Shown here one piece after another: positions 1 through 57,255 of a stretch of DNA of 64,000 nt; positions within the stretch are counted from its first letter, which is position 1; every line of letters starts with the position of its first letter. The notes beneath the pieces were generated by a model, which was not told the origin of the DNA, searched no databases, and saw only the letters and a program-made list of their open reading frames with translations. A program made the translations under genes and the position numbers. Source of the stretch: an uncultured archaeon (GTDB lineage Archaea > Aenigmatarchaeota > Aenigmatarchaeia > QMZP01 > QMZT01); NCBI GenBank assembly GCA_964441265.1, contig CAYYKJ010000003.1, forward strand, positions 23,428 through 87,427, in the 5' to 3' direction.

Positions 1-1834
1 AAACCCCTATGGTCTGGGAAGTGTGGATTTCGGTCAGCGGCGTTCCGGAGTCGGTTGTATAACTGGTGTTGCCGGTGAAGTTGTACGTGTCTCCGGTGGT
101 CATGCTAGAATGGGATATGCAGTCGTATGTCAGCTTTATCAGCTCGTTGCTGTCCCTGGCGCCGAGGGAATCGCCCACCGTTCCCCCTCCGCTTAAATCG
201 GCCGCGGAGAAGTCCGGTATGGTGATGTTCACGAGTCCATCTGAGGTCCCGTCACCGGCGGGATCGGTCACCGTGACCGATATGTCCGTGTCGGATGTGT
301 CCAGTTCGTAAGAGCCGGTGTTGTTCACGAAGTAAAGCTGCACAGAGCTCGTATTGGCGTCGAAAGCGCCGTGGAAAAGCCCCGCCGTCGTGTTCGCCGG
401 GACGACCGAAAGCAACACCACCTTTTCGGCGGCGGCGGAGGTGCTTCCCATGTGCGTGGAGTTGTCGTTTATGGTGATTACATCGCCTCCGCTATCCGGG
501 TTTATGGTACCGGATATGGATTTGACGTTGGCCATGTCCACCTTGTAGAGTATGGGCATGTCCAGGGTGGTGTTCACGAAGCCATGGTAGTTGTCCGAAC
601 CGGTGTCGTTCCACTCAGCGTGCCATGCCAAATATACAGTGAAATACGGCTTGCTCGTGGAGCCGGTATTGAACCAGGAGGTGTTCGAAGACCTGTCCTT
701 CTCGGTGGTGTATATCCTCCCGTCTGAGGGCGTCAGAAGCTCGTCGTTGGCGCTCTGGTTGAACTTCCCGCTCTGGTTCGCGGTACCGTAAGGCGCCCCT
801 GTGGAGGGATTTATCTCGTATATCCTCCATTCCGTGACATTGTACGTCAGGGAATGCCCGCTGGAAGGGCTTTCGTTGGCCATGTTCCTCATGAATCCCC
901 TCACCGACCACTCGTTGCTGGAATCCTGGGACATGTCTATGCCCTGCCTCACCGGTCCCTTGGCCGACTTGCTGGAAATGGTGAGCCCGGTCAGAGTTCC
1001 TGACTGGGAATAATCCGCGCTCACTCCGGCCCCCGCCGAATCCGTGTCAATGCTGTTGACGCCAAGACCTATGTGAGTCCCTTCCTCCAGTGTGGCATTC
1101 CAGGTGACGTAGACGATCGATCCCGCGTTCAGGTCTCCTGTCCATACGATCCTGTCGTCGTCAGAGTCTCCTCCGTCTGAGTTGGATACCACGGTCGAGC
1201 CGCTGGTCGAGGAATTGGTGTCTGTATCTATGGACATCACATCATTCGAGCCGCTCGTGTCGGTGCTGAACTGGATCGTGACCTGGGAACTGGGAAGATC
1301 GACAGAAGAGCTTGGGTTCTCGAGGCTCAGGTTGAACTCCAGAGTGTTTTCACTGTTCCCCATGTTATCCGCGTCGAAAATGTCATACCCTCCCTCGCTG
1401 TTGTTGTATATCATCTTAAGCTTTATGACTGGGGCGGCGGTGGTGTTGGTGACATTGTAATAATCGCCGTCGGTCGTTTTGTTGCAAGTAAGCTTGCTCC
1501 TGGAATAGGCGGTGGGATAAGAAGTTATCACGTTCTTGTATGCAGTGGCGTCCTCAAGGTTGGTTTCGTCCGTGGAGGAAAGTGTCACCCTTACCTGCTG
1601 GAGGGTGTCCCAGTCGTTGGGAACGGAAGCCTCCACGTATCCGTAGCGGCAGGGGTTCGCCGCAGGACTGCATTCGGAATACGTGTTGGCGCCCTCTGAC
1701 CCCCATGTACTGTAATTCGCCTTTACCTGCTCCACCACGAAGGCCCTGGGCCCCCAGGCGGCGGAAGAAAAATTAGCCATCAAAATCAAACTTATAACGA
1801 AAACTAGAACACCACAAACGACATTCAACCTCAT
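1..1834 (-). CDS. Secreted or surface glycoprotein-like protein, partial (continues beyond the window start). N-terminal signal/TM segment followed by a long Asn/Ser/Thr-rich region with many N-x-S/T sequons.
   Basis: Manual translation of the minus strand from the ATG at 1834..1832 gives MRLNVVCGVLVFVISLILMANFSSAAWGPRAFVVEQVKANYSTWGSEGANTYSECSPAANPCRYGYVEASVPNDWDTLQQVRVTLSSTDE... as one open frame for the first ~106 codons; beyond that the open frame was not verified codon by codon. Only short plus-strand ORFs are listed for 66..1776. The ORF track does not list it, presumably because it is partial. Confidence 0.5.
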   Translation of the reverse strand, partial: MRLNVVCGVLVFVISLILMANFSSAAWGPRAFVVEQVKANYSTWGSEGANTYSECSPAANPCRYGYVEASVPNDWDTLQQVRVTLSSTDETNLEDATAYKNVITSYPTAYSRSKLTCNKTTDGDYYNVTNTTAAPVIKLKMIYNNSEGGYDIFDADNMGNSENTLEFNLSLENPSSSVDLPSSQVTIQFSTDTSGSNDVMSIDTDTNSSTSGSTVVSNSDGGDSDDDRIVWTGDLNAGSIVYVTWNATLEEGTHIGLGVNSIDTDSAGAGVSADYSQSGTLTGLTISSKSAKGPVRQGIDMSQDSSNEWSVRGFMRNMANESPSSGHSLTYNVTEWRIYEINPSTGAPYGTANQSGKFNQSANDELLTPSDGRIYTTEKDRSSNTSWFNTGSTSKPYFTVYLAWHAEWNDTGSDNYHGFVNTTLDMPILYKVDMANVKSISGTINPDSGGDVITINDNSTHMGSTSAAAEKVVLLSVVPANTTAGLFHGAFDANTSSVQLYFVNNTGSYELDTSDTDISVTVTDPAGDGTSDGLVNITIPDFSAADLSGGGTVGDSLGARDSNELIKLTYDCISHSSMTTGDTYNFTGNTSYTTDSGTPLTEIHTSQTIGV

Positions 1835-2854: not shown

Positions 2855-3112
2855 ATTCGCCCCGCAAAGAAAATCCTATTTCTTCTTGAGTAATTTGTCA
2901 AGCTTCTTGTCTATCCGGTTCATCCTTTCCTTCATGTCATCCCACGCCTCCAGCATTATCCGTGGGGCGGCTTGGGCCGGAACCTCGCAGGGACGGGCTT
3001 CCTGTCCCTCAGAAAATGGACGATCTCCCTGTTTATCAGCCTGTAATATTTCTTCCCCTGCTTCCATTCGGATTCCACGAGGCCTATTTCCTGAAGGAGA
3101 TTCAGGTGAAAG

Positions 3113-3532
3113 TCAATCGTCTGCGGTCTCTTTCCCCGTTCTATCGTAGTATTGCAGATTTTTTATGACATTTTCGGCACAACCCCGTATGAGTTCCCTT
3201 GCTATTCTCAACCTCTTCCCGTGATCGGTGTAATGCCCCACTTGCTTTATCAAAAGATCCCCCGACAAAAGCTTTTCGCGGGGATAATAACTGCCTTCGT
3301 AATTTTCATACTTGCCAAAAAAATGTATGGGCACGCCATGCTTTGAGAGGTACGAAACGACACCAGAGGAAAAACTCAGTCGACCATGGGCATATATTGA
3401 ATATATCTTCTCTATGGGGAGGATTCTCCTTTCCATCTTCCCCTCTTCGTTGTTTCTGACAAAATAAACTGTGTTCTGCTTTCTTTTGAGTATGCCGTCC
3501 TTTGTTATGAAAAAATTGACCTTCATTTCCAT
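3113..3532 (-). pseudogene. cas1: cas1 N-terminal fragment, 139 aa, truncated before the catalytic domain
   Basis: YFVRNNEEGKMERRILPIEKIYSIYAHGRLSFSSGVVSYLSKHGVPIHFFGKYENYEGSYYP...LLIKQVGHYTDHGKRLRIARELIRGCAENVIKNL matches the Cas1 N-terminal beta-sandwich domain and the first helices. The ORF stops about 190 aa short of a full Cas1, and no cas2 follows. Confidence 0.7.
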
Positions 3533-3551
3533 ACCACCGATTATGTGACAA

Positions 3552-4952
3552 CTAAAGCTTATCCATAGCTATTATTTCTACCCCGAACTTCTCTCCGGCT
3601 TTCCCGGGCCCATCAAAACCAGAGCACACTATTATGAATTTCTCCGAGAAGTTTAAGCTGGCATTTATTTTTGATGATTTCTCCTTAAGGGATTTGGATA
3701 TCCTTTCAATGTCCCTGTCTTTGAGGCGACCAAGTTTGGCTTCGCCAATCAGAAGCTTCCTGCCTATCCTGTCTATGCCCAGTATGTCCACCTCAGACTT
3801 CCTGTCCCACCAGCGGCCGAATATGTAGTCCTTATATTTGTCCATATGAACAAGTTCAGATATTGCTACTTCTTCAAACGCATGCCCTGCGAATGAACCG
3901 AGTTCCATTAATATCTTATTATCCACAAGGTTTTCCTGCCGGCCCTGTTCGACATATTCCAGATTTTCAAAAACAAACCTGAACCAGAATCTGAAGAAGT
4001 TGTCCTTTATGACATATATGCCATTCCTCGAGCGGGAAGCGTTTTTTTCTGTTACCGGAACCCTTCTTTCAATAATGTGTAGGTTTGACAGCGTATCCAA
4101 ATATTTGTTGACAAAAGACTTCTCAAAGCCCGTGTCGTTAACTATCTGGCCGGGCCTTGTATTTCCCTTTGATATCGAGTATAATATGGAGAAATAGTTT
4201 TTTGGCTCTTTCAGTTCCTCTCTCAGGGTGAAGAGGACGTCCTGGAAAAGGAACCTGTTTTTCATCAGTACATTCCGAAGGATATTCTCCCTTATGCCTT
4301 TGTCGAAGTTAAACTCAAGCAGGTATGCCGGCATGCCGCCGAGCACGGCGTAATTCATCACCTTTTCCCTGAAGGGCATTCTTTCCGGGAAAAAGCGGCA
4401 CGCGTCCCTGAAATTAAGCGGCTCCAGCAGCATCTGCTCAGTTCTCCTGCCATATATGGGGCTTTTATGTCCGAGGAGCCTCTCCATCATCGACATTGAC
4501 GAGCCGCACAGCACGATAAATGCATTTTTTTCCGAAAGGTTATTATCCCAATGGTCCTGAAGTATGGAAGTCACCTTCTTCGAGGACTGTACCATGTAGG
4601 GAAATTCATCGAAAACAACCGGCATCCTGGGTTTTGACGCAATATAAGCGAAAAGTGCGTCCCAACTGGAGAAGGGGCTCAGCCTGAGCACGTCATCATT
4701 GAAAAACTCCGCCACCGAGCGACTGGCGCTCCTCAGTTGTTCCCTCTCTGATTCCTGCCTGGCAAGTATGTACAGCCCTTTATGTTTTTTGAGGAATTCC
4801 TTCAAGAGTTCTGTCTTCCCGACCCTTCTTCTCCCGTAAAGTATTATGAGCTTTGGGGCACCTTTTTCATAAAGTCCGTTCAAAAGCTTCAGTTCAGATA
4901 CCCTGTTTTTGAAATTTGCGCCCTTTGCTCTGTTGGATTTAGTATACTTCAT
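3552..4952 (-). CDS. AAA+ ATPase of the archaeal-ATPase type with a C-terminal DUF234-like PD-(D/E)xK nuclease-fold domain
   Basis: Walker A motif LILYGRRRVGKTELL. The C-terminus ...SEVDILGIDRIGRKLLIGEAKLG... shows a D...EAK nuclease-like motif. It lies 40 bp downstream of cas4 and 20 bp upstream of the cas1 fragment. Confidence 0.7.
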   Translation of the reverse strand: MKYTKSNRAKGANFKNRVSELKLLNGLYEKGAPKLIILYGRRRVGKTELLKEFLKKHKGLYILARQESEREQLRSASRSVAEFFNDDVLRLSPFSSWDALFAYIASKPRMPVVFDEFPYMVQSSKKVTSILQDHWDNNLSEKNAFIVLCGSSMSMMERLLGHKSPIYGRRTEQMLLEPLNFRDACRFFPERMPFREKVMNYAVLGGMPAYLLEFNFDKGIRENILRNVLMKNRFLFQDVLFTLREELKEPKNYFSILYSISKGNTRPGQIVNDTGFEKSFVNKYLDTLSNLHIIERRVPVTEKNASRSRNGIYVIKDNFFRFWFRFVFENLEYVEQGRQENLVDNKILMELGSFAGHAFEEVAISELVHMDKYKDYIFGRWWDRKSEVDILGIDRIGRKLLIGEAKLGRLKDRDIERISKSLKEKSSKINASLNFSEKFIIVCSGFDGPGKAGEKFGVEIIAMDKL

Positions 4953-4991
4953 AGTAGTATAATGTATAATATACTATTTAAAGGTTTTTCC

Positions 4992-5543
4992 TCACTTCAC
5001 CCAGCAAAATTCAAAATAGCTGCATTTTCTACACATTTTCCTCTTTTCTGGTTCCGGTGGCTTCTCCATTGAAACTATATCACTTATATTTCTCAGGATG
5101 TCTTTTATTCTAGTTTCATTGTCCTCGGTAAGAATGATGGATTTTGTCTTCCTTAATTTGGGGTAATCTATCACCCCCTCAGCATCTACGCCTTTCTGTT
5201 TGAGATAATAAAGGTAATACAGGAGCTGGCAGACGTGGGCGTCTTCCATCTTGTTTGACTTCTTGATGTCGTGGAGCAACAGCTTGCCGCCTCTTTTCAT
5301 GAAATCTATGGATATCCTGGAATCTATCATTATTTCTTTCTTGGCGCCGGCATAGCTTGCTTCATGAATCACCCTGCCCATGGCCACGGCATCGGATTCG
5401 CGCTCCTGCCTTATGAAATGCGAGAAATACCAGAGTTTGGTGGGGCATATCACGTAATAGTTTACCTGCGTCCCTGTGAAGACACATTGCTTCGAAATCA
5501 TACGAATGGCCTCAGAACTCAAGAATCTCATCAACAAATGCAC
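4992..5543 (-). CDS. cas4: Cas4 RecB-like nuclease, apparently intact
   Basis: N-terminal FTGTQVNYYVICPTKLW, a QLLYYLYYLKQKG (QxxxY) motif, an IDF...LLHDIKK (D...DxK) motif, and a C-terminal CRKCSYFEFC cysteine cluster. All four Fe-S cluster cysteines are present. Confidence 0.8.
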   Translation of the reverse strand: MHLLMRFLSSEAIRMISKQCVFTGTQVNYYVICPTKLWYFSHFIRQERESDAVAMGRVIHEASYAGAKKEIMIDSRISIDFMKRGGKLLLHDIKKSNKMEDAHVCQLLYYLYYLKQKGVDAEGVIDYPKLRKTKSIILTEDNETRIKDILRNISDIVSMEKPPEPEKRKMCRKCSYFEFCWVK

Positions 5544-6882
5544 AGAAGACCAATGCAGGAATCAGCATTATATTGATGTTCTTGTCTTTAACTATCCTGA
5601 AATCGCTCTTTGTTATTATGAATCCACTGCTGCATCCGATCTTCCTCATCTCTTCTTTTACTTTCTTGATGTCCTTTTTTGTTACCCTTTCCCTGTATTT
5701 GACCTCGATTAACGTCGTCTTTTCGCCTTTGACCACAAAATCTATCTCACCGTTGCTTCTGAGATACGTCATCCTCTTTCCATGCTTCGAACAACTGATG
5801 AAACAGTGAACTCCCACTATGTTTTCAATGACAAACCCTTCGTTGTCTTCCTTTATCTCATAGTCCCTGAGCAATGAGTTCCTTATGCCCTGGTCCACGC
5901 ACAGGAATTTCTTTTTGGATTTCAGCTGCTCCTTAACCGTTTTGGCAAGCTTCAGTATTTCGATTATGAGATAGGATGATTTCAAATACTCTATATAATT
6001 TGTGAGTATCTCATGCTTCAGCCTTGCCGCCTCGTTTATTTTTTCATAGCTTAATATCCTTGACTGGTTTGCAATGATGAAAACGAAAATCTGCTCCAGA
6101 ATCTTTGCATTCCTTATTCTGAAAGTAGTCGTTATGTCCTCGTATATCGCCTTGTTTGAAATTGAGTTTTTCAGTATTCTGAACCAGTCCCTGAAGTCTT
6201 TCACCTCAAAGAATTCGGGAAATCCTCCTGCAAGCATGTACTGCCTGAAATCCTTTTTGTACGCATCAAGGATTTTATCAACCGAAACGGCATCTGTTTT
6301 AAAATGAGTGACCTCCGTCCCCTTAAGCTCCATGAACTGCCTGAAGGACAAGGGCCATACCTCATGCAGAATGTATCTGCCCCTCAGGTACCTGTTGGCT
6401 TCTTTTTGCAGGGTCAGGCTTGACGAACCCGAAATGAATATCTTTATGTCTTTGTGTCTGTCGTATGCAACCTTAAGCCATTTGTACCACTCACTAACAA
6501 AATGTACCTCATCGAAAAACACGTATTTTTTACCTTCTTCCGCTATATTTTCCAGCCAGTAATCAAAAATGTCCTTGATAAGGTTATCAGAATATATCTT
6601 AAGATATGGATCCTCAAGAGAATAGTACAGAATGTTCCTGGGCTTTGCTCCCTGCTTGATGAGCCTCGCCATGATGTGCTTCATCAGGACGCTCTTGCCA
6701 ACCCTCCTCGGCCCGGTAATTATGGATATCTTTTTCAGCCGGGCGTCGCTGTGAATCTCCTCGACCTCGTCCCTCTCCAGGGGGTAATCCTCCTTCTCCT
6801 CAACCTTCCCGGTAAGCCAGAACCTGTTCGCCTTCTCAAGCTCCTGCCTGAAGACCCCCCTGTCCTTTATCATATTAACCAT
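5512..6882 (-). CDS. AAA ATPase of the AAA_14/DUF4143 type with a C-terminal PD-(D/E)xK-like domain
   Basis: Walker A motif ISIITGPRRVGKSVLMKHI, Walker B motif VFFDEVH, and a C-terminal GEIDFVVKGEKTTLIEVKYRE nuclease-like motif. Its 3' end overlaps the cas4 start, which suggests an operon. Confidence 0.7.
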   Translation of the reverse strand: MVNMIKDRGVFRQELEKANRFWLTGKVEEKEDYPLERDEVEEIHSDARLKKISIITGPRRVGKSVLMKHIMARLIKQGAKPRNILYYSLEDPYLKIYSDNLIKDIFDYWLENIAEEGKKYVFFDEVHFVSEWYKWLKVAYDRHKDIKIFISGSSSLTLQKEANRYLRGRYILHEVWPLSFRQFMELKGTEVTHFKTDAVSVDKILDAYKKDFRQYMLAGGFPEFFEVKDFRDWFRILKNSISNKAIYEDITTTFRIRNAKILEQIFVFIIANQSRILSYEKINEAARLKHEILTNYIEYLKSSYLIIEILKLAKTVKEQLKSKKKFLCVDQGIRNSLLRDYEIKEDNEGFVIENIVGVHCFISCSKHGKRMTYLRSNGEIDFVVKGEKTTLIEVKYRERVTKKDIKKVKEEMRKIGCSSGFIITKSDFRIVKDKNINIMLIPALVFCAFVDEILEF

Positions 6883-6984
6883 TATAGTGGAACATATTTA
6901 TATATTTTTATGCCAGTATAGTGGGAGAAAAGAAAAAGCAACGTCGAGCTCAAGACTTATAACTTTTGGTGATTTTTTAAGAAA

Positions 6985-7066
6985 GCCTGACCGGGCATAC
7001 AATGTAATGATTTACATGGGTTCCTGTGAAGAGATATTCCTTCGCCAGTAGGTCTTGCATAATACC
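6985..7066 (-). pseudogene. cas4: Remnant of a second cas4 gene (N-terminal 27 codons, then a stop)
   Basis: The minus strand translates to MQDLLAKEYLFTGTHVNHYIVCPVRLS*. Compare the intact Cas4 KQCVFTGTQVNYYVICPTKLW. DNA identity with the 5457..5489 region is about 75%. Confidence 0.5.
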
Positions 7067-7288
7067 TCACACAAGCAATAAAAATAACCAGGCAGGAACA
7101 AACATAATCCTTTTTTGTTTAACTCTTTTTTCTTCCAACCTTTCCCGCGTTCATAACGTATTTTATTTGTATTATGGCACAAGTAACCTTTAAGTCTACT
7201 TGTAGAATCATATAAGTAAATTTTGGCGAGTTTTTGGCACGGCTGTTAGGAAAGCGGGTTTAAGACGGGATCTGATTCGGGTTTTGGG

Positions 7289-8506
7289 TTAGATGATGTT
7301 ATTTCCAAATTGATTTATTTCCTCTTTGTCTATATCTTTTATAACATCGATTCCCTTTTCTCTTATACTGTCCATGGTTTCTTTTTTCTGCTTTTTCATG
7401 ACAAAAAATCCTTTGAATTCATGGGAGACTAATCCCCACTTAAGCCAGGGCTTTGCCAGATAAAATTCTGGCAAATTCACTGAATATTCATACAGTATTT
7501 TCTTTAATTTCCATCTTAGGTTTTTTCTTTCTTGATTATTCTCACTTATTTCGATTCCATCTTTTTGTAACTTGTCTAGTATCTCATTCCAAGAAATATT
7601 ATTATTTTCTCTATCATTAATTATTTTAGCAAATGTTTTTCTCAATTTCACATCATCCTCCTCTTTTTCATTTTCTTCTTGCTCTTCAATCTCCATCAAT
7701 TGAGGAATAACCATTTGCATTCCACCAAGTCTTCTGAAAATTCTTTGGGCGTCACTTCTTTTTTCAGCTGTAAGGTACTTTAAATAATCTAGATTTTTCT
7801 TTATCTCTAGTATGTATTTTGAAGTTAGCGAATTTCCATCCTCCTCCTTTCCAAAAACATCATCGATCAGCTCTCTTTCTTTTTCATAATTGAGCGGTTG
7901 ATTCTCAAATTTCTTTAGAATTTTCACAGTGGATTCCATTACTTCTTCATCATAAATTGCCTTGCTTCCCCTGTCTTTACTGAAATTTGAAAAGACAATT
8001 ATGTTTGGTTCAACGACTTTATTTTCCTTATTCCTATTTATTCTCCCCCATCTCTGAATTTGGCTATCAATAGGGGAAACCTCCGTGATCATAAAATCGA
8101 AGTCTACATCTACAGATGCCTCAACCATCTGAGTAGATACCAAGATTACTTTTTTGCCTTCATCCAACCTCTCTTTAATTTTCTCTATTCTTTTACCTTT
8201 TACTTTCTCTGTTAGCCGTGAATTTAGCAAGAAAAAGCCGTCTTCTTCATTTTTTCCAAATTTTTCATAAAGTTCTATTGATTTTTTTACATTGTTTACT
8301 ATTATCATGGTACTGACTTCGTTTTCTTTAAAATCCTTCACCGGGAATATATTGGAAAAGCAGAAGTATTTGTATGTCCTTTTGTCGTGAAGCTCATCAT
8401 AGGCACTGCCCTTCAATAATTTATAGAAAAAACCCTGCAATTTTTTATAATACAACATATCATAAACACAATCCTTCTCAACATTGAAATTCAGGAGAAT
8501 TCTCAT
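7289..8506 (-). pseudogene. cas3: In-frame fusion of a Cas6 N-terminus (about 58 aa) to the Cas3 helicase C-terminal half. This is a remnant of a type I-B-like cas operon.
   Basis: The N-terminus MRILLNFNVEKDCVYDMLYYKKLQGFFYKLLKGSAYDELHDKRTYKYFCFSNIFP looks like a Cas6 N-terminus with the F-x-F-S motif. It is followed by MIIVNNVKKSIELYEKFG...FFLLNSRLTEKVKGKRIEKIKERLDEGKKVILVSTQMVEASVDVDFDFMITEVSPIDSQIQRWGRINR, which matches Cas3 helicase motifs IV to VI plus the Cas3 C-terminal domain. The HD domain, Walker A and DEAH motifs are absent. Confidence 0.65.
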
Positions 8507-19186: not shown

Positions 19187-19501
19187 TCAGTCTCCCGGGG
19201 GGAAATCCGGAATGACGCTGTCAAAGAATTTCCTGACGGGCTCAAGTTTCACTTCGACCACTTTTCCCGTGTAATGCCGTTTGATGGCCTGCCTCAGTCC
19301 GTTGAGGCTTTTGTATCCGAACTCGCTGGGATGATAGCCTGTCTTGCTCTCGTGTCCTTTCTCTCCTATTATTTTAACCATGACATAACGGGGCGTCAGT
19401 GAAGTCTCAAATCTTTTGGGATTGTGTCCGTGACGTTCAATAAAACCGTCCCATGGCCGATCAAGACTTTCATATAAGCCCGGTTCTTTTCCTTTTCCCA
19501 T
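19187..19501 (-). CDS. Hypothetical protein, 104 aa
   Basis: ORF only, no recognised motif. Confidence 0.3.
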   Translation of the reverse strand: MGKGKEPGLYESLDRPWDGFIERHGHNPKRFETSLTPRYVMVKIIGEKGHESKTGYHPSEFGYKSLNGLRQAIKRHYTGKVVEVKLEPVRKFFDSVIPDFPPGD

Positions 19502-19548
19502 GAACAGGATTTGTCCGTGAGCTTTTTAAAAACTGTCTTTCCCGAAAA

Positions 19549-20949
19549 TCAGACCCGCTTCCACTTGAAGGACTTGGCGAGGGTGTAGACAAGGACCAGG
19601 AAGGGAAGTATCTCCAGCCGGCCCAGCAGCATGCAGACCATGAGCACGACCTTGCCGGCCAGCGGGACCAGGGCGACGTCGATGGTGGTGAGCCCCACCG
19701 TCCCTTCCGCGGAGGCGGAGACGAAAAGCGAATCCACCGGGGCGTATCCCATGGCGCTGAAGATCAGTGTGGAAAGCACCAGTATGAGTATGTAAATGAA
19801 CGAGAACAGGGATATGATGGTGAGCTCCTCCTGCTGTATGGCCTTGCCGTGGAACTTGAAGGGCAGAACCGCGGACAGCGGATAGGTTATCTTCTTGGAG
19901 AGCCAGGGTATTGCCTTGGCTATTATCCCCACCCTCACCAGCTTGATGCCCCCGGCAGTCGAGCCCGCGAATCCCCCCACGGTCATGAGTATTATTATCA
20001 GTATCTTTGAGACCGCTGGCATCTCCATGCCCATGGTCGTGAACCCGGTGGTGGTGATGGCGGAGAAGGCGTGAAATATACCGATCCTGAAAGGCTCGAG
20101 CGTGCCAAGGAATGAAAGGGAGAGGAACAGGGAAAAAACTATCGCTATTATCCAGAACAGCTGGGTCTCCCCGTTCTTCAGGTATTCCACGAATTTCTTC
20201 TTGAACATCTTGTCATGCACGAAAAAGGAGGTGGCTCCCAGAACCATGAGCAGCACTATCACTGCCTCTATCCCGACGTTCGAATACGAACCTATGGAGC
20301 CCGCCGCAGGGGAAAAGCCTCCCGTGGAAAGGGAGGTGAAGGTGTGGAGTACGGAATCGAAAACCGGCATGCCCGCCAGGGAAAGGAGGAGGAATCCCGC
20401 GAATGTATATATACCGTATATCATGAATATCCTCTTGACCGTGTGGTGTATGCCTGCCTCGATCCTCTGGGACCGTCCTTCCGCCTTGTAGATATAATAT
20501 GAGGACATACCGGGCGAGGAGAGGAGCAGGAGGAATATGACCAGTATCCCGACCCCCCCTATCCACTGGGTGAAGGACCGCCAGAACAGTATGGAATTGG
20601 GCAGTGTCTCGGGATTTACCACGGAAAGTCCGGTGGTGGTGAATCCGGAAACGGATTCGAACAGGGCGTCAGCCGGGGCCATGTGGTCCAGATAGGCGAC
20701 CGACCCGAAGGCGGATATCACTATGAAGGTGACCGCGGAAAGCACCATGGCGGACCCCAGGGAAAGCGGGGACCTCTGGAACCTCCTATCCAGCAGGAAT
20801 CCTATGACGAGGGAAACCGACGCCATGGTGAAGAACGGGATGTACACCGCCTCCTGAAAGGCCCAGGAAACTATGAGCGGAATGAGTGACAATATGCCGA
20901 ATATCTCCAGTATGAGCCCAAGGTAGGAAAGCAACGAACGAAACTCCAT
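19549..20949 (-). CDS. trkH: TrkH/KtrB-family K+ transporter. The start was moved to MEFRSLLSYL, so the 92-aa low-complexity extension in the ORF track is not counted.
   Basis: Multiple TM helices and selectivity-filter-like GFTTTG/GFSPAAGS/TTTGFT motifs. ATG at 20949. Confidence 0.8.
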   Translation of the reverse strand: MEFRSLLSYLGLILEIFGILSLIPLIVSWAFQEAVYIPFFTMASVSLVIGFLLDRRFQRSPLSLGSAMVLSAVTFIVISAFGSVAYLDHMAPADALFESVSGFTTTGLSVVNPETLPNSILFWRSFTQWIGGVGILVIFLLLLSSPGMSSYYIYKAEGRSQRIEAGIHHTVKRIFMIYGIYTFAGFLLLSLAGMPVFDSVLHTFTSLSTGGFSPAAGSIGSYSNVGIEAVIVLLMVLGATSFFVHDKMFKKKFVEYLKNGETQLFWIIAIVFSLFLSLSFLGTLEPFRIGIFHAFSAITTTGFTTMGMEMPAVSKILIIILMTVGGFAGSTAGGIKLVRVGIIAKAIPWLSKKITYPLSAVLPFKFHGKAIQQEELTIISLFSFIYILILVLSTLIFSAMGYAPVDSLFVSASAEGTVGLTTIDVALVPLAGKVVLMVCMLLGRLEILPFLVLVYTLAKSFKWKRV

Positions 20950-21022
20950 ATCTTTTATAATAATATTATTTAATATAAAATCAGGTGTTGCAGCCTTCTT
21001 CCGGTCAGCGGGTGTCTTTGAA

Positions 21023-22072
21023 ATGAAAAAAGGATTCATGCACATAATAGAGATCGTACTGGTGACTCTCCTCCTCTTCTTCATATTCTCACAGTTCGTC
21101 AGCATACCCAAGACGGCGACGGACTGGCCGGAAACCAAGCTTTTCCTGATGGCGAGGGACGTACTTGAGGTACTCGACGAAAGGGATGTGGACTGGCTCA
21201 ATGAGACCGAGGTCAAAGGCAACATAACCGAACTTCAGGACAAGGGGATGATACCGGGCAACATCATATATTCCCTCAGGGCAGAGAACGTGATTAAGCC
21301 GGATATGAGGGTCGCCTGTGCCGGGTGCACTGAGGAGGACTACGGGAACCTGACCTCCGTGCTGGAGGGCTTTGAATGGAACGGGAAGGAGATCAACTTC
21401 ACGGTCCAGAGGGAAGAGAACTTCGGGAGCTCCTTCTATCCGTATTACGACGTGGTTGTGATCATGGACGGATCGCTCCCCCAGGACACGGATAGCATGG
21501 AGAATTTCCTGGGGATGGACAAGGGAATCGTTGGTATATTCGAGCCTTCCTTCACCCCCTCACAGGAGAAGTACTTCGGAGTGATGGAAGGCGGCACGAC
21601 GGCGGGCACAGGCGAAGTGCGGTTCTCCCCCGAGGCCAGGAGGGCGGGAAGCCAGATATACGGAATATACAAGGTCTTCACCAACATGGGAGCGGACGGG
21701 GAGGAATTCCCACTGGAATACGGATTCAGCAACACCGAACGGGATTTTCTTGAATCTGGAGAAAAAACTATATGGGACGAGGGAAGGAGCGAGGTGGTTC
21801 TAATCCAAGAAGGGAGCGGAGTTGCCGCCTGCATCTCCAGATATTACGTATCTGACGGCAAGGGCAGAATCGCTTGGGTCTCCGGGGGAAACTTCTCCAG
21901 AACGGATTACTCCTCGCTGGTGAAATCCCTGGTGTGCTGGGCGGCCGGGGACGAGGTTAATGTCATTGAATCAAAGATATCCGAACCCGTTTCCGCCTCC
22001 ATATACAGGAGCATGAACCAGGACGCCTTCCAGGGGGCCAGGATAACGCTAACCGTGGGATACCCTTTTTAA
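21023..22072 (+). CDS. Membrane-anchored protein with a type IV pilin-like (class III) signal peptide. Function unknown.
   Basis: MKKGFMHIIEIVLVTLLLFF resembles prepilin leaders (KG|F followed by a hydrophobic stretch with Glu). The rest is a soluble domain of about 320 aa. Confidence 0.4.
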   Translation: MKKGFMHIIEIVLVTLLLFFIFSQFVSIPKTATDWPETKLFLMARDVLEVLDERDVDWLNETEVKGNITELQDKGMIPGNIIYSLRAENVIKPDMRVACAGCTEEDYGNLTSVLEGFEWNGKEINFTVQREENFGSSFYPYYDVVVIMDGSLPQDTDSMENFLGMDKGIVGIFEPSFTPSQEKYFGVMEGGTTAGTGEVRFSPEARRAGSQIYGIYKVFTNMGADGEEFPLEYGFSNTERDFLESGEKTIWDEGRSEVVLIQEGSGVAACISRYYVSDGKGRIAWVSGGNFSRTDYSSLVKSLVCWAAGDEVNVIESKISEPVSASIYRSMNQDAFQGARITLTVGYPF

Positions 22073-22094
22073 TATTCCCCTTCAATCTTATTGT

Positions 22095-22388
22095 ATGGAA
22101 CACAACCAGGAAATAGTGAGGGTAAGGACCCCCAGGGGAAGAGAGGTAATCGGAGTGATAGAAGAGATGCTCGGGGGCGGAAGGTTCAGGGTCAGCTGTA
22201 CGGACAACAACAGCAGGATATGCAAGGCAGCGGGGAGATTCAAGAGGAAGCGCTGGATAAAGCCCGGGAACGTCGTCATAATCGAACCGTGGGAAATCGA
22301 GAGCGACGAGAAAGGGAACATAATATGGAAATACACCAAGGCCCAGACCAGATGGCTGCAAAAAAAGGGATTTCTTGAAGGGCTCTGA
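22095..22388 (+). CDS. eif1a: Translation initiation factor aIF-1A
   Basis: 97 aa with an OB fold: RVRTPRGREVIGVIEEMLGGGRFRVSCTDNNSRICKAAGRFKRKRWIKPGNVV. Confidence 0.8.
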   Translation: MEHNQEIVRVRTPRGREVIGVIEEMLGGGRFRVSCTDNNSRICKAAGRFKRKRWIKPGNVVIIEPWEIESDEKGNIIWKYTKAQTRWLQKKGFLEGL

Positions 22389-22452
22389 TGCCCGGATTCA
22401 AACTATATTTAAGTTTTCAGCCAACTTATAATATAACCCGGGGGATCTTCTC

Positions 22453-22935
22453 ATGGATATCGTAAACATACCGGAAAGAAGAAAGGGCGTGCTGATTGGA
22501 AAGGACGGGAAAGTCAAAAGGGGCATAGAAAAGGCCACCGGCACGACCATAGAGATAAACAGCGGTGTCGAGATCGAGGGAAATAGTCTCGGCGTGCTGA
22601 AAGCCAGGGATATAGTAAAGGCGATAGGAAGGGGATTCTCTCCGGAAAAGGCGATGCTCCTTCTGAAAGAGGAGAACCGGCTGATAATAATATCCATGGA
22701 GGGGAAGAGCAGGAAGACCATAAAGAGGCTCTTCGCCAGGGTCATAGGGACCAATGGAAGGACGAAGAGGATAATAGAGAGGAACACGCATACCTGCCTG
22801 TCCGTGTTCGGGAAGACGGTCTCTGTTATAGGAAAATGGGACTCCGCGGAAAGGGCGGAGGAGGCAGTGGAGATGCTGCTTCAGGGAAAAACCCATACCT
22901 ACGTCTATAAATTCCTTGAAGGAGGGAAAAAATGA
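22453..22935 (+). CDS. KH-domain RNA-binding protein
   Basis: VLIGKDGKVKRGIEKATGTTIEI and a second KH-like repeat (GxxG loops). Confidence 0.65.
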   Translation: MDIVNIPERRKGVLIGKDGKVKRGIEKATGTTIEINSGVEIEGNSLGVLKARDIVKAIGRGFSPEKAMLLLKEENRLIIISMEGKSRKTIKRLFARVIGTNGRTKRIIERNTHTCLSVFGKTVSVIGKWDSAERAEEAVEMLLQGKTHTYVYKFLEGGKK

Positions 22936-24626
22936 GGGCTGAGGACCTCGCGAAAAGGCAGAGATCAATAAGCATTTCCGAATTCTTCGAGAAGAACCGC
23001 CATCTGCTCGGTTACGACAACAAGACCAAGGCGCTGCTGGTTATAGTCAAGGAAGGGGTGGACAACGCCCTGGACGCCGCGGAAGAGTCGGAAATACTAC
23101 CTGAGATCTACGTGAGGGTGTCGGAGGCCGGAGAGGAAAAATACGAAATCGTCATCAGGGACAACGGCCCGGGTATCGTCAGAAAGCAGATACCCCGGAT
23201 ATTCGGCAAGCTACTTTACGGGTCGAAGTTCCACCGTCTGAAGCAGAGCAGGGGCCAGCAGGGCATAGGCATCTCAGCGGCGACACTTTATTCCCAGCTG
23301 ACCACGGGAAATCCTCTGAAAATCACGACATCCACCGGGAACGGAAAGACCCATGTTTACAGCATAAAGATAGACGTGAAAAAGAACGAGCCTATAATTC
23401 ACGAAAGCGAAACGAGGGAGGGAGAGCAATGGCACGGCGTCGAGCTCAGGTTCCTTGTGGAGGGATTATACAGGGAGCACAGGCAGTCAATACTGGAGTA
23501 CCTGAAAGAGACCGCCATATCCAACCCCCACGCAAACATAGTCTTCTCTTCTCCCAACGGGAAGCACGAGTTCAGGAGGGGTGTGGATGTTCTCCCCAAG
23601 GAACCGAGGGAAATAAAGCCGCATCTGGAAGGCATCGAGATGGGCATACTCCTGAGGATGATGAGGGACACAAAGGCCAAGACACTGTCCGGCTTCCTGA
23701 CAACCGAATTCACAAAGGTGGGCAGGAAGAGCGCCAAGGAGATATGCAGAATCGCCGAAATAAAGGAAAGTACCAGGCCGAAAAGGACAAAGGACGAGGA
23801 GGCAAAAAGGATATTGGATGCCGTCAAGAAGGTCAAGCTCCTAAAGCCTCCGCTGGACTGCCTCTCACCGCTGGGCAGTGATTTCATATCCAAGGGAATG
23901 GAAAAGGAGCTGAACCCGGAATGGGTCGGGGCGGTTACCAGGCCCCCGGCCGTTTACAGGGGATGGCCGTTCCAGATTGAAGTAGGAATAGCGTACGGGG
24001 GATCAATAGAGTCCTCAAAATTGATGAGGTTCGCCAACAGGGTGCCACTGCTCTACCAGGCAGGGGACTGCGCCATAACCAAATCGGTCAACGGGACCGA
24101 ATGGAGAAGGTACGGGCTCAGCAAGAAGCTCGAGGAAGACCCGGTGGTCATGTTCGTTCACATGGTTTCCGTATGGGTTCCCTTCACCTCCGAATCCAAG
24201 GAGGCTATCGCCTCCTATCCGGTGATAGTCAAGGAGATGAAGCTGGCGCTCCAGGAATGCGCCAGGAAGCTCTCCAGATTCCTTTCCGGTAAGAGGAAGG
24301 AAGCCCACCGAAAGGAGAGGATCAGGATATTCGACAAATACGCTGAAGAGACCGTCGACGCCCTCTCCGAACTCACCGGAAGGGAGAGGACAGAGGTGGA
24401 GAGGGAAATGAAGAAGCTCATAGAAAAAATGAAGGGCGGGACCGGTAATAAAAATCAGGCAAAGGATTACGAGATAATAACCACAGGAGAAGGAGAGGAT
24501 TCGAATGGAGAAGAGGGAAGAGGGAAAGCTGAAGGGAATGGGCCGGAAGGTTCTGGAACAGATATCAAAGGAAAAGAACCCAAAGATAGACCTTCCCATC
24601 AGGTCACTCTCAAACATCTACTTTGA
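22932..24626 (+). CDS. top6B: DNA topoisomerase VI subunit B
   Basis: GHKL ATPase N-box VKEGVDNALDAAEE, G-boxes DNGPGI and GQQGIGIS, H2TH and transducer domains. Confidence 0.9.
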   Translation: MRAEDLAKRQRSISISEFFEKNRHLLGYDNKTKALLVIVKEGVDNALDAAEESEILPEIYVRVSEAGEEKYEIVIRDNGPGIVRKQIPRIFGKLLYGSKFHRLKQSRGQQGIGISAATLYSQLTTGNPLKITTSTGNGKTHVYSIKIDVKKNEPIIHESETREGEQWHGVELRFLVEGLYREHRQSILEYLKETAISNPHANIVFSSPNGKHEFRRGVDVLPKEPREIKPHLEGIEMGILLRMMRDTKAKTLSGFLTTEFTKVGRKSAKEICRIAEIKESTRPKRTKDEEAKRILDAVKKVKLLKPPLDCLSPLGSDFISKGMEKELNPEWVGAVTRPPAVYRGWPFQIEVGIAYGGSIESSKLMRFANRVPLLYQAGDCAITKSVNGTEWRRYGLSKKLEEDPVVMFVHMVSVWVPFTSESKEAIASYPVIVKEMKLALQECARKLSRFLSGKRKEAHRKERIRIFDKYAEETVDALSELTGRERTEVEREMKKLIEKMKGGTGNKNQAKDYEIITTGEGEDSNGEEGRGKAEGNGPEGSGTDIKGKEPKDRPSHQVTLKHLL

Positions 24627-25590
24627 CGAGAAAAAGGGACTCATAAAGCTGGGAGACAAGTCCAGCCAGAGGTATTACTTCAACACCGCCCACACCAAGA
24701 AGTTCATGCAGACGCTCATGGTGGCGGCGGAGTGCAAGAAGATAATGGATCAGAAGGTAACCACATCCATCAGGGACCTTTATTACGCCCTTAAGAGGAC
24801 GCTCGCGGGAACCAAGGAGAACACCTTCGACGAGCAGAGCGAATCAGACCCGATAATCGAGGACGTCGAGGCGGCCCTCAACATGATAAGGGAAAAGCTC
24901 CACCTGAAGGCGGACAGGAAGGGGTACATGGCCGGCGACATAATCATAAGGGACTCCGGCGACCGAATCGATTGCTCCATGATGGGCTCGAGTGGGTGGG
25001 CCATACCCAGCAACGTGGAGCCCGAAGTGATAGAATTCGAAAAGGTGGATACCGATTTCGTGCTGGTCATAGAGAAGGACGCGGTGTGGCAGCGCCTGAA
25101 CGAGGACAAATTCTGGAAGAAGCAGAACTGCATCATACTCACGGGAAAGGGACAGCCTGCGAGGGGCTGCAGGAGGCTGATAAACAGGCTGCACAAAGAG
25201 CGGGGGCTTCCCGTATACGTCCTGGCGGACGCGGATCCGTGGGGGTATTACATCTATTCCGTGATCAAGCAGGGATCGATAACCCTCTCCTTCCTATCCG
25301 ACAGACTGGGGACACCGGATGCGAAGTTCATAGGCCTGACCACCAGGGACGTGGATAAGTTCGGGGTAAGCAGAAACGTGACCATCCGGCTGAGCGACAA
25401 GGACAAGAAGCGCGCAAAGGAGATGATGAAATACAGGTGGTTCAAACCCAAGGAATGGCAACGCGAAATCAAGCACATGCTCAAGATGGGTTACAAGCTC
25501 GAACTGGAGGCCCTTTCCTCCAAGGGAATCAGGTTCATCTCCGAAGAGTACCTCCCGAAGAAGCTGGCCGAGAAGGATTTCCTGGGATGA
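24505..25590 (+). CDS. top6A: DNA topoisomerase VI subunit A (Spo11-like)
   Basis: Winged-helix region with catalytic Tyr (YYALKR) and a Toprim domain (VLADADPWGYYI). Overlaps the top6B 3' end. Confidence 0.9.
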   Translation: MEKREEGKLKGMGRKVLEQISKEKNPKIDLPIRSLSNIYFDEKKGLIKLGDKSSQRYYFNTAHTKKFMQTLMVAAECKKIMDQKVTTSIRDLYYALKRTLAGTKENTFDEQSESDPIIEDVEAALNMIREKLHLKADRKGYMAGDIIIRDSGDRIDCSMMGSSGWAIPSNVEPEVIEFEKVDTDFVLVIEKDAVWQRLNEDKFWKKQNCIILTGKGQPARGCRRLINRLHKERGLPVYVLADADPWGYYIYSVIKQGSITLSFLSDRLGTPDAKFIGLTTRDVDKFGVSRNVTIRLSDKDKKRAKEMMKYRWFKPKEWQREIKHMLKMGYKLELEALSSKGIRFISEEYLPKKLAEKDFLG

Positions 25591-25625
25591 TCCAAGGTTT
25601 TATTTCTTTCCGGGAAAACCTAAAC

Positions 25626-57183: not shown

Positions 57184-57255
57184 CGCCTCGGCCGGGATTT
57201 GAACCCGGGTCCTGGGAGTGACAGTCCCAGATGATAACCACTACACTACCGAAGC
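57184..57255 (-). tRNA. tRNA-Asp(GUC), 72 nt, no encoded CCA
   Basis: GCTTCGG-TA-GTGT-AGTGGTTA-TCAT-C-TGGGA-CTGTCAC-TCCCA-GGAC-CCGGG-TTCAAAT-CCCGG-CCGAGGC-G. Only 2 nt separate it from the downstream Trp-like gene. The D-stem has one mismatch. Confidence 0.75.

What the first reader, a model, noticed from the sequence alone, without database searches (positions are those of the whole stretch)
3113..6882. Compact operon: AAA+/PD-(D/E)xK ATPase, solo cas4, a second AAA+/PD-(D/E)xK ATPase, and a Cas1 N-domain-only ORF
Four minus-strand genes are packed with overlaps or gaps of 40 bp or less. The first is an AAA_14/DUF4143-type ATPase. The second is an intact Cas4 with all four Fe-S cysteines and RecB motifs. 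The third is an Arch_ATPase/DUF234-type ATPase. The fourth is a 139-aa ORF that is just the Cas1 N-terminal domain. Both ATPases end in PD-(D/E)xK nuclease-like motifs (D...EVK and D...EAK), so three of the four products carry restriction-endonuclease-fold nuclease domains next to P-loop ATPases. No cas1 catalytic domain, cas2, effector genes or CRISPR array is present. The tight spacing argues that this arrangement is maintained and expressed rather than random decay. It may be a Cas4-centred, array-less defense or DNA-processing module. Two unrelated AAA+/nuclease 'orphan ATPase' families are not, to my knowledge, described as Cas4 partners.
Basis: partly seen in the sequence, partly recalled or inferred. 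Interest (0 to 1): 0.85.

Follow-up and report, generated by a model that had tools for sequence, protein, structure and literature searches.

The report
Decayed CRISPR locus hosting two ATPase-nucleases

Summary
The four ORFs are real and their domain calls are correct. Directly upstream lie a cas6(N-terminus)::cas3(C-terminus) fusion ORF (7289-8506) and a 27-codon cas4 stub (7060-6977). cas1 is cut at codon 139. No cas2 or array exists in the 64 kb. The locus is therefore a mosaic relic of a type I-B cassette.

Both ATPases belong to known families, PADLOC PDC-S01 and PDC-S27: AAA+ ATPases fused to PD-(D/E)xK nucleases, abundant in archaea and untested as defence genes. Each has its own TATA-like box and conserved catalytic motifs. 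Each has dN/dS of about 0.07 against close relatives (78-81% identity) that lack cas4.

ATPase 1 is more similar to its homologue in a syntenic relative than the flanking housekeeping genes are, and it sits elsewhere there. ATPase 2 survives in a second relic next to a 31-codon cas1 stub fused to a CRISPR repeat.

Among 53 informative Cas4 loci, 7 carry such an ATPase next to cas4. At least three of those are complete loci with arrays. The same junctions also hold toxin-antitoxin genes. The embedded ATPases are mutually only 22-46% identical.

Verdict: recurrent embedding of autonomous genes, not a Cas4 partnership.

The parts
7289..8506 (-). In-frame fusion ORF (405 aa). The Cas6b N-terminus (residues 1 to about 70) is joined to the C-terminal part of Cas3b (from about residue 60: RecA2 helicase lobe plus C-terminal domain). 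The junction lies near 8273-8324. This is the scar of a deletion of roughly 6 kb that removed the rest of cas6, cas8b, cas7, cas5 and the N-terminal part of cas3.
   Evidence: PADLOC Cas6b 1.8e-20 (residues 1-113) and Cas3b 1e-45 (model 399-640/676). Pfam Cas3-like_C_2 6.6e-26. TIGR01587 positions 220-357/358. tblastn to the L016 cas6 (residues 1-69, 46%) and cas3 (residues 61-405, 43%). GC is 32%, against 42-45% for the block downstream.
6977..7060 (-). cas4 5' stub (27 codons plus stop): MQDLLAKEYLFTGTHVNHYIVCPVRLS*. It is the remnant of a second cas4 and probably marks a recombination scar at the junction of the effector and adaptation modules.
   Evidence: Read directly from the sequence. 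It matches the conserved Cas4 N-terminus FTGTQVNYYxICPTKLW of alignment A1. No such stub lies upstream of the embedded ATPases in L016, L038, L053, L060, L061 or L079.
6883..6924 (-). Promoter-like leader of ATPase 1, with an A/T-rich TATA-like box (AAAAATATATAAATA, 6895-6909). It is part of the transferred promoter-plus-ORF unit.
   Evidence: Nucleotide homology to L004 (79.5% over 1384 nt) spans window 6924..5543. The box is identical in L004. Promoter function is inferred, not shown.
5512..6882 (-). ATPase 1: AAA+ (AAA_14) ATPase, a winged helix, and a C-terminal DUF4143 PD-(D/E)xK nuclease domain. It is a member of the PADLOC candidate family PDC-S01.
   Evidence: Pfam AAA_14 2.7e-35 and DUF4143 5e-23. 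PDC-S01 1.8e-75. Walker A GPRRVGKS, Walker B DE, and E...D...EVK conserved 99-100%. dN/dS is 0.066 against L004. The AF2 model has pLDDT 93 and an ORC/STAND-like fold.
4992..5501 (-). cas4 (169 aa from the ATG at 5501; the ORF extends to a GTG at 5543). It is a sequence-intact, CRISPR-associated (type I-B-like) Cas4.
   Evidence: Pfam Cas_Cas4 7.8e-60. TIGR00372 4e-27, above cut-off. PADLOC Cas4b 5.2e-60. All invariant residues, including the 4 Cys, are retained. The closest relatives examined (59-62% identity) all lie in cas3-cas4-cas1-cas2 operons.
4953..4986 (-). Promoter-like leader of ATPase 2, with a TTTAAATA box at 4975-4982 (23-30 nt upstream of the ATG).
   Evidence: It is conserved with L008/L009, where no cas4 precedes it. 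Nucleotide homology starts at 4986, directly after the cas4 stop. Function is inferred.
3552..4952 (-). ATPase 2: AAA+ (ATPase_2, archaeal ATPase) ATPase, a winged helix, and a C-terminal DUF234 PD-(D/E)xK nuclease domain. It is a member of the PADLOC candidate family PDC-S27.
   Evidence: Pfam ATPase_2 1e-27 and DUF234 1.1e-17. PDC-S27 8.6e-44. Walker A GRRRVGKT, Walker B DEFP, and E...D...GEAK conserved 93-100%. dN/dS is 0.069 against L008. The AF2 model has pLDDT 87; the top structural hits are the archaeal AAA+ ATPases 2QEN and 2FNA, then ORC/Cdc6.
3113..3532 (-). cas1 pseudogene fragment: the N-terminal beta-domain only (139 codons). The catalytic alpha-helical domain is deleted.
   Evidence: It covers TIGR03641 positions 2-127 of 324 and Pfam Cas_Cas1 2-125 of 283. 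It is 63-66% identical to full-length Cas1 of L016, L018 and L021 up to the stop. No Cas1 homology exists in any frame downstream. Every Cas1 in the survey loci that is not cut by a contig end is a single ORF of 266 aa or more, apart from one split gene in L052.
2965..3123 (-). Possible pseudogene remnant in another frame after the cas1 breakpoint: IDFHLNLLQEIGLVESEWKQGKKYYRLINREIVHFL... By eye it resembles the end of an ArsR-type winged helix.
   Evidence: Translation. There is no significant Pfam match (protein 9), so this is an unsupported impression only.

Best explanation
The region 2965-8506 is a mosaic relic of a type I-B CRISPR-Cas cassette in an archaeal chromosome. It can no longer perform CRISPR immunity.

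Gene order on the minus strand is: cas6'::'cas3 fusion, cas4 stub, [ATPase 1, PDC-S01], cas4, [ATPase 2, PDC-S27], cas1 fragment.

The two ATPase genes are autonomous single-gene units, each a promoter plus an ORF. They are embedded at the cas3|cas4 and cas4|cas1 junctions, which recur as permissive slots in type I adaptation modules.

Each ATPase encodes an ORC/STAND-like AAA+ NTPase, a winged helix and a C-terminal PD-(D/E)xK nuclease. Their likely action is inferred, not shown: ATP-dependent binding or oligomerisation on nucleic acid that licenses the nuclease against invading DNA, acting independently of Cas proteins.

Deletions and an inter-cassette recombination then removed the effector genes, most of cas1, cas2 and the array. 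Selection kept the two ATPases. cas4 is a stranded CRISPR-associated gene that has not yet decayed.
For: Relic status:
- The cas6'::'cas3 fusion.
- The cas4 stub.
- cas1 limited to model positions 2-127 of 324.
- No cas2, array or repeat remnant.
- A GC step from 32% (cas6/cas3) to 42-45% (the ATPase1-cas4-ATPase2-cas1' block), against 56% for the neighbouring hisS.

Autonomy of the ATPases:
- The closest homologues (81, 67, 59 and 47% for ATPase 1; 78, 67 and 66% for ATPase 2) lie in non-cas contexts.
- Nucleotide homology is confined to the promoter plus ORF, with conserved TATA-like boxes.
- L004 is syntenic with window 19.5-25.6 kb. Housekeeping proteins there are 50-73% identical, yet its ATPase 1 homologue is 81% identical and sits at a different site and orientation.
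- L008/L009 retain an intact ATPase 2 homologue followed by a 31-codon cas1 stub. That stub is fused to the last 20 nt of a type I-B CRISPR repeat, and no cas4 is present. This is a second, independent relic in which only the ATPase survived.
- dN/dS is about 0.07 for both, and catalytic motifs are conserved.

Recurrent embedding:
- 7 of 53 informative Cas4 loci have a PDC-S01 or PDC-S27 gene beside cas4, and 1 of 52 has one between cas4 and cas1.
- Embedded copies are 22-46% identical to each other, apart from the related pair L060/L061 at 87%.
- The same slots hold AbiE, MNT-HEPN, HEPN and ParB-methylase genes.

Literature:
- They are abundant in archaea and described as ATPase plus PD-(D/E)xK fusions (PMC12988326).
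- DUF234 and DUF4143 are classified as PD-(D/E)xK (PMC3424549).
- Adaptation and effector modules are shuffled as units (PMC5704561).
Against: - Seven of 53 is far above a rough chance expectation. With about 1.7 such genes per archaeal genome and an assumed 2000 or so gene junctions per genome, the expectation is about 0.05 in 53 slots. Some specific affinity for, or functional benefit from, the cas4 neighbourhood therefore cannot be excluded.
- The ATPase1-cas4-ATPase2-cas1' block is compositionally uniform and tightly packed. This is compatible with the four genes having travelled together for some time.
- No experiment shows that either ATPase family defends against viruses or cuts DNA.
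- Promoters are inferred from sequence only.
- The rest of the source genome was not examined, so cas4 could serve another CRISPR locus in trans.
- dS (1.6-1.8) is near saturation, so the dN/dS values are rough.
Confidence: 0.72

Rival explanations
1. One reading: a maintained, array-less module centred on Cas4. In it Cas4 and the two ATPase-nucleases cooperate in defence or DNA processing, perhaps with the Cas1 N-domain as a fourth component.
For: Spacing is tight. Cas4 and both ATPases are sequence-intact. The block from ATPase 1 to the cas1 fragment has uniform GC. L038 repeats the ATPase-cas4-ATPase order.
Against: - The flanks show decay: the cas6'::'cas3 fusion, the cas4 stub and a cas1 cut with no conserved counterpart.
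- ATPase 2 persists without cas4 in L008/L009.
- The closest relatives of ATPase 1 lack cas4.
- L038 and L016 are complete CRISPR-Cas loci with arrays, not array-less modules.
- The dead cas1 fragment is as well conserved as cas4.
- Both ATPases have their own promoter-like boxes.
Confidence: 0.06
2. The ATPase-nucleases are accessory components of Cas4-containing adaptation modules. They might generate or process DNA fragments for Cas4-Cas1-Cas2, or act as a back-up that fires when CRISPR is inhibited. The window would then be a decayed example of such an augmented type I-B locus.
For: The ATPases are strongly enriched right next to cas4 in complete loci (7 of 53). Both unrelated ATPase families use the same slot. 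They usually run in the same direction as the cas genes. The nuclease plus ATPase chemistry fits DNA processing.
Against: - The embedded copies are not a clade and are no closer to each other than to solo copies.
- The nearest relatives are solo.
- The same slots hold unrelated toxin-antitoxin and methylase genes.
- One copy is on the opposite strand (L032).
- The ATPases outlive the cas genes in two relics (window and L008/L009).
- The great majority of Cas4 loci lack them (27 of 53 have cas3 directly adjacent).
Confidence: 0.14
3. The ATPase genes are selfish mobile cassettes, or plain paralogous genome 'weeds', with no defence role. They land in dispensable DNA such as dying cas loci.
For: They transfer as single genes with their own promoter. 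Copy numbers in archaea are very high. They occur next to a transposase and other variable genes (L104). No antiviral activity has been demonstrated for them.
Against: - Strong purifying selection (dN/dS about 0.07) and conserved catalytic motifs argue for a function that benefits the carrier.
- They sit in intact, array-bearing cas operons, not only dying ones.
- No recombinase, terminal repeats or target duplications were seen around them.
Confidence: 0.08

Closest known systems
Type I-B CRISPR-Cas cassette (cas6-cas8b-cas7-cas5-cas3-cas4-cas1-cas2-array), e.g. loci L018/L019 and L016 found here
   Same: The gene order of the remnants is the same (cas6, cas3, cas4, cas1). Best profile matches are the I-B variants Cas6b, Cas3b, Cas4b and Cas1b. 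Cas4 and the Cas1 N-domain are 61-66% identical to those of intact loci.
   Different: cas8b, cas7 and cas5 are gone. So are most of cas6, the N-terminal part of cas3, the catalytic domain of cas1, cas2 and the array. An extra cas4 stub and two foreign ATPase genes are present.
PADLOC phage-defence candidates PDC-S01 (AAA_14 + DUF4143, COG1373) and PDC-S27 (ATPase_2 + DUF234, COG1672)
   Same: Both window ATPases match these models over their full length (1.8e-75 and 8.6e-44). They have the described ATPase plus PD-(D/E)xK architecture.
   Different: [quoted passage not shown] Here, and in at least 7 other loci, they are embedded in CRISPR-Cas adaptation modules beside cas4. I found no description of that setting in the searchable literature.
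Embedded defence genes in multi-gene immune systems (guilt-by-embedding; PrrC in type I RM, BrxU in BREX) and toxin-antitoxin insertions in cas loci
   Same: A small autonomous gene is nested between the genes of a larger defence operon. Several unrelated gene types use the same slot.
   Different: The host system is CRISPR-Cas, and in this window it has decayed around the embedded genes. No functional coupling, such as PrrC-type guarding, is shown.
Solo-Cas4 (Hudaiberdiev et al. 2017, PMC5704561)
   Same: A cas4 gene without a working cas1-cas2 partner nearby.
   Different: Solo-Cas4 proteins form their own, mostly vertically inherited clades. This Cas4's relatives whose contexts were examined are all CRISPR-associated. 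It is a stranded CAS-Cas4, not a member of the solo lineages.
ORC/Cdc6 and STAND NTPases (CED-4/Apaf-1, Avs4, NRC) and the archaeal AAA+ ATPases PAB2304 (2QEN) and SSO1545 (2FNA)
   Same: The predicted folds of both ATPases match these over the NTPase and winged-helix parts (Foldseek E 7e-08 to 2e-12).
   Different: Sequence identity is 11-22% and TM-scores are 0.3-0.5. The window proteins carry a C-terminal PD-(D/E)xK domain. They lack the large sensor repeats of Avs/NLR proteins.

Membership tests
Functional type I-B CRISPR-Cas system | Effector complex genes cas8b, cas7 and cas5, and a complete cas6 | tested here: not met
   Only Cas6 residues 1 to about 70 remain, fused to Cas3. phmmer with the Cas5/7/8/11 references from L016, L018 and L021 finds nothing else in the window.
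Functional type I-B CRISPR-Cas system | Complete Cas3 (HD nuclease plus both helicase lobes) | tested here: not met
   Only model positions 399-640 of 676 (PADLOC Cas3b) and 220-357 of 358 (TIGR01587) are present.
Functional type I-B CRISPR-Cas system | Cas1 with its catalytic C-terminal domain, plus Cas2 | tested here: not met
   Cas1 covers model positions 2-127 of 324 only. There is no further Cas1 match and no Cas2 match in any frame.
Functional type I-B CRISPR-Cas system | CRISPR array next to the cas genes | tested here: not met
   There is no tandem or direct repeat array in the 64 kb. No Rfam CRISPR repeat family reaches its gathering score. There is no degenerate copy of the repeats used by L016, L021 or L038. 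The rest of the genome was not examined.
Cas4 (PF01930 / TIGR00372), CRISPR-associated clade | RecB-type motifs (D, (D/E)xK, QhxxY) and four Fe-S cysteines | tested here: met
   All 24 invariant columns of a 28-sequence alignment are kept: C19, D66, K80, H89, Q92, Y95, Y96, C157, C160, C166 and others. The HDIKK variant is shared with P0244, P0245 and P0247. TIGR00372 scores 95.2 bits, above the 65-bit cut-off.
Cas4 (PF01930 / TIGR00372), CRISPR-associated clade | Nuclease activity and a role in spacer acquisition with Cas1-Cas2 | not testable with these tools
   No intact Cas1 or Cas2 is in the window. Activity would need biochemistry.
Solo-Cas4 lineages | Membership of clades distinct from CRISPR-associated Cas4, with mostly vertical inheritance | tested here: not met
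   All relatives whose contexts were examined lie in cas operons. The best PADLOC model is Cas4b. The definition is from PMC5704561. No formal tree was built.
PDC-S01 (PADLOC candidate; AAA_14 + DUF4143) | Full-length match to the family model, with P-loop ATPase and C-terminal PD-(D/E)xK motifs | tested here: met
   PDLC04787 1.8e-75, residues 36-441 against model 12-402 of 412. Motifs are conserved. There is a weak Mrr_cat hit at residues 372-428.
PDC-S01 (PADLOC candidate; AAA_14 + DUF4143) | Antiviral activity | not testable with these tools
PDC-S27 (PADLOC candidate; ATPase_2 + DUF234) | Match to the family model, with P-loop ATPase and C-terminal PD-(D/E)xK motifs | tested here: met
   PDLC04984 8.6e-44 and PDLC04985 6.5e-27 (residues 13-422). 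Pfam ATPase_2 and DUF234 are both above cut-off. Motifs are conserved.
Single transcription unit (operon) of the four genes | One promoter and no internal starts | tested here: inconclusive
   TATA-like boxes lie 13-30 nt upstream of both ATPase start codons and are conserved in homologues from unrelated contexts. That argues for at least two promoters. The available promoter tool covers only sigma-70 sites, and no transcript data exist.

The most novel reading that the evidence does not exclude
AAA+/PD-(D/E)xK ATPase-nucleases of the PDC-S01 and PDC-S27 families are preferentially recruited next to cas4 because they work with Cas4-containing adaptation modules. They might produce or trim DNA substrates for spacer capture, or guard the adaptation module. 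The stranded ATPase-cas4-ATPase block of this window may then retain a Cas1-independent DNA-processing or defence activity.
Probability: 0.12. Interest if true: 0.75.

Novelty: new member of a known kind. Interest (0 to 1): 0.35.

Why it matters
The locus itself is an ordinary decaying CRISPR-Cas cassette built from known families.

Two side results have some value. First, PDC-S01 and PDC-S27 genes are the most common archaeal defence candidates and have no proven function. They recur at the cas3|cas4 junction of complete type I loci, in 7 of 53 here. This extends the 'embedded defence gene' pattern from BREX, DISARM and RM systems to CRISPR-Cas, and it points to concrete intact loci (L016, L038, L079) for testing.

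Second, in two independent relics (this window and L008/L009) the embedded ATPase stayed intact under purifying selection while the CRISPR locus around it was deleted. That is natural evidence that these genes function on their own. It could also help annotators recognise CRISPR relics.

Tried and rejected
- The listing of cluster members gave no names or accessions, so the organism stays unidentified. It is an archaeon with split rpoB and rpoA and topoisomerase VI.
- Sequence search of solved structures found nothing for ATPase 1 and only 2QEN (1.1e-05) for ATPase 2.
- Full-length fold searches hit only the NTPase and winged-helix part. The nuclease fold of the C-termini therefore rests on motifs, Pfam and the literature, not on a structural match.
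- Pfam does not support the impression that a winged-helix pseudogene follows the cas1 breakpoint.
- No direct or inverted repeats, target duplications or recombinase genes flank either ATPase. A transposon-like mechanism was considered and dropped.
- No cas4 stub lies upstream of the embedded ATPases in six other loci. The stub is therefore a feature of this locus, not of the insertion mechanism.
- Literature searches pairing DUF4143, DUF234, COG1373, COG1672 or AAA_14 with CRISPR or Cas4 found no description of this linkage. The CRISPR-linked-genes preprint does not mention these families in its main text.
- The idea that L008/L009 show a mobile 'ATPase 2 plus cas1 5' end' unit was rejected. 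The stub there is joined to a CRISPR repeat end, which indicates deletion in place.

Full report
**1. Observation**

The four minus-strand ORFs exist as described. They are 5512-6882 (456 aa), 4992-5543 (likely true start ATG 5501, 169 aa), 3552-4952 (466 aa) and 3113-3532 (139 aa). The gaps are 10, 39 and 19 nt.

Profile searches confirm every domain call:
- ORF1 is AAA_14 plus DUF4143.
- ORF2 is Cas4 (Pfam 7.8e-60; TIGR00372 above cut-off).
- ORF3 is ATPase_2 plus DUF234.
- ORF4 is Cas1 matching only positions 2-127 of the 324-position type I-B Cas1 model.

Cas4 retains all invariant residues of 28 relatives, including the four cysteines. In alignments of more than 100 homologues, both ATPases keep Walker A, Walker B and an E...D...ExK nuclease signature at 93-100% conservation. 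DUF234 and DUF4143 are classified as PD-(D/E)xK domains (PMC3424549). The window holds no CRISPR array and no degenerate repeat.

**2.

The next ORF upstream on the same strand (7289-8506) is an in-frame chimera. Residues 1 to about 70 are the N-terminus of Cas6b. Residues from about 60 onward are the C-terminal part of Cas3b. In intact relatives, about 7.6 kb separate those two points (L016 898-8493). A deletion of roughly 6 kb therefore removed cas8b, cas7, cas5 and most of cas6 and cas3.

Between this ORF and ATPase 1 lies a 27-codon stub of a second cas4 (7060-6977). cas1 homology runs right up to its stop codon and then ends in all frames.

Composition changes abruptly. The cas6/cas3 chimera has 32% GC (GC3 34%). 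ATPase 1, cas4, ATPase 2 and the cas1 fragment have 42-45% GC (GC3 50-58%). The adjacent hisS has 56%.

The stub and the GC step indicate that two cassettes recombined at the junction of the effector and adaptation modules. This fits the module shuffling described for Cas4-bearing adaptation modules (PMC5704561). The region is thus a mosaic relic of a type I-B locus.

**3. The ATPases are known, autonomous genes**

Both match PADLOC candidate defence families over their full length: PDC-S01 at 1.8e-75 and PDC-S27 at 8.6e-44. [quoted passage not shown] They are among the most common candidate systems in archaea and are described as ATPase plus PD-(D/E)xK fusions. Validation is pending for most of these candidates (PMC12988326).

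The closest relatives of ATPase 1 (81, 67, 59 and 47% identity) and of ATPase 2 (78, 67 and 66%) lie in contexts without cas4. Nucleotide homology to those relatives covers only a short leader plus the ORF: window 6924..5543 for ATPase 1, and 4986..3441 for ATPase 2. The leaders carry conserved TATA-like boxes. dN/dS is about 0.07 for both, although dS is near saturation.

Locus L004 is syntenic with window 19.5-25.6 kb. TrkH, eIF-1A, a KH protein and topoisomerase VI B and A are 50-73% identical there. Its ATPase 1 homologue is 81% identical and sits at another position and orientation. The gene has therefore moved more recently than the two genomes diverged.

AlphaFold models are confident (pLDDT 93 and 87). 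They resemble ORC/Cdc6 and STAND NTPases, and for ATPase 2 also the archaeal ATPases 2QEN and 2FNA.

**4. A second relic**

In L008/L009, the 78%-identical ATPase 2 homologue is followed by the same 19-nt spacer and a 31-codon cas1 stub. The stub is joined to GACTATTGTAGGATTGAAAT, which is the last 20 nt of the repeat found in the arrays of L016 and other I-B loci.

No cas4 or other cas remnant precedes it. So an ancestral cas4-ATPase2-cas1-cas2-array arrangement was eroded independently in two lineages, at different breakpoints. The ATPase alone was kept intact in both.

**5. Neighbourhood survey around Cas4**

The closest Cas4 relatives whose contexts were looked up (59-62% identity) all sit in complete cas operons. 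One of them (L016/L017) has a PDC-S01 gene between cas3 and cas4. It is only 29% identical to the window's ATPase 1, while Cas4 and Cas1 are 62-63% identical.

I then fetched 80 metagenomic loci around Cas4 relatives. I annotated them with family HMMs and Cas references, and checked the ATPases against PADLOC. The results for non-redundant loci with at least 1.4 kb on the relevant side are these:

| Position | Informative loci | Main finding |
|---|---|---|
| Upstream of cas4 | 53 | 27 have cas3 directly adjacent |
| Upstream of cas4 | 53 | 7 have a PDC-S01 or PDC-S27 gene beside cas4 (L016, L032, L038, L053, L060, L061, L079) |
| Downstream of cas4 | 52 | 47 have cas1 directly adjacent |
| Downstream of cas4 | 52 | 1 (L038) has an ATPase between cas4 and cas1 |

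L045 is a further case, on a short contig. L032 carries the ATPase on the opposite strand.

L038 reads cas3, PDC-S01, AbiEi, AbiEii, cas4, PDC-S01, cas1, cas2, array. L016, L038 and L061 have arrays after cas2. The embedded ATPases are 22-46% identical to one another, no closer than to non-cas copies; the related pair L060/L061 (87%) is the exception.

Other inserts at the same junctions are AbiE, MNT-HEPN, HEPN, a ParB-methylase and a Fic fragment. The cas4 flanks are therefore recurrent permissive slots for small autonomous defence or addiction genes. The ATPases arrived there many times independently.

Seven of 53 is far above a rough chance expectation. With about 1.7 such genes per archaeal genome and an assumed 2000 or so gene junctions, about 0.05 would be expected.

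**6. Interpretation**

The best explanation (confidence about 0.7) is a dead type I-B locus carrying two living, independently embedded ATPase-nuclease genes. What is shown:
- the anatomy of the relic;
- the family membership of all parts;
- the autonomy and mobility of the ATPase genes;
- their purifying selection;
- the recurrence of embedding.

What is inferred:
- the promoters;
- the order of events;
- the mode of action, namely ATP-dependent nucleic-acid binding or oligomerisation of an ORC/STAND-like module that licenses the PD-(D/E)xK nuclease against foreign DNA.

The intact cas4 is most simply a stranded CRISPR-associated gene. The certainly non-functional cas1 fragment is equally well conserved relative to the same relatives, so intactness is no evidence of maintenance.

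Three rivals remain:
- A true accessory role of the ATPases in Cas4-containing adaptation modules (about 0.14). The enrichment keeps this alive. The lack of co-divergence, the solo close relatives and the mixed cargo of the slots weaken it.
- Purely selfish cassettes without a defence role (about 0.08).

**7. Novelty and score**

All components belong to known families, and decaying cas loci are common. The locus is a new member of known kinds.

I could not find the recurrent embedding of PDC-S01/S27 beside cas4 described in the searchable literature. The survival of the embedded gene after the loss of its host locus is a modest but useful observation. Interest is 0.35.

Noticed in passing
L008 1588-1702 and L009 2345-2459: A 31-codon cas1 stub downstream of the ATPase 2 homologue is fused to the last 20 nt of a type I-B CRISPR repeat (GACTATTGTAGGATTGAAAT). 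Unrelated genes (HIT, MFS) follow. This is a second, independent CRISPR relic in which only the embedded PDC-S27 gene survived.
   Followed up: yes
window 19500-25600 versus L004 4400-11000: L004 (NCBI MAG GCA_053536695.1) is syntenic with this part of the window. TrkH, eIF-1A, a KH protein and topoisomerase VI B/A are 50-73% identical. Its ATPase 1 homologue (81%) lies next to a radical-SAM gene and TrkH rather than in a cas relic, which points to recent relocation or transfer of the gene.
   Followed up: yes
L010-L015 (5743-9371) and L104 (8001-12502): PDC-S27 and PDC-S01 genes lie within 1-2 kb of each other without any cas genes. In L010-L015 a Bro-N gene sits between them. In L104 a DDE transposase and an AbiEii gene are nearby. 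The two families may share insertion hot spots or variable islands.
   Followed up: partly
L038 3047-9151: A complete locus reads cas3, PDC-S01, AbiEi, AbiEii, cas4, PDC-S01, cas1, cas2, array. It is the closest intact analogue of the window's ATPase-cas4-ATPase order.
   Followed up: partly
window 47759-50590 (-): The RNA polymerase subunit A'' gene carries an intein with a LAGLIDADG homing-endonuclease domain. rpoB is split into two genes (53073-56350). Together with topoisomerase VI, this marks an archaeal chromosome.
   Followed up: no
window 1-1834 (-), continuing beyond the window (L001 13668-20191): This is the start of a 1124-aa ORF with no Pfam match. In the longer contig it is followed by two small ORFs and a HerA/DUF87-type ATPase. 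It may be another defence-type gene set next to the relic.
   Followed up: no
window 2876-3123 (-): Two overlapping short reading frames follow the cas1 breakpoint. One looks by eye like the end of a winged-helix regulator, and the other ends in a lysine-rich tail. Neither has a significant Pfam match.
   Followed up: partly
window 57184-57255 (-) and 60602-60713 (-): One tRNA gene and a 5S rRNA gene are the only Rfam matches in the window.
   Followed up: no
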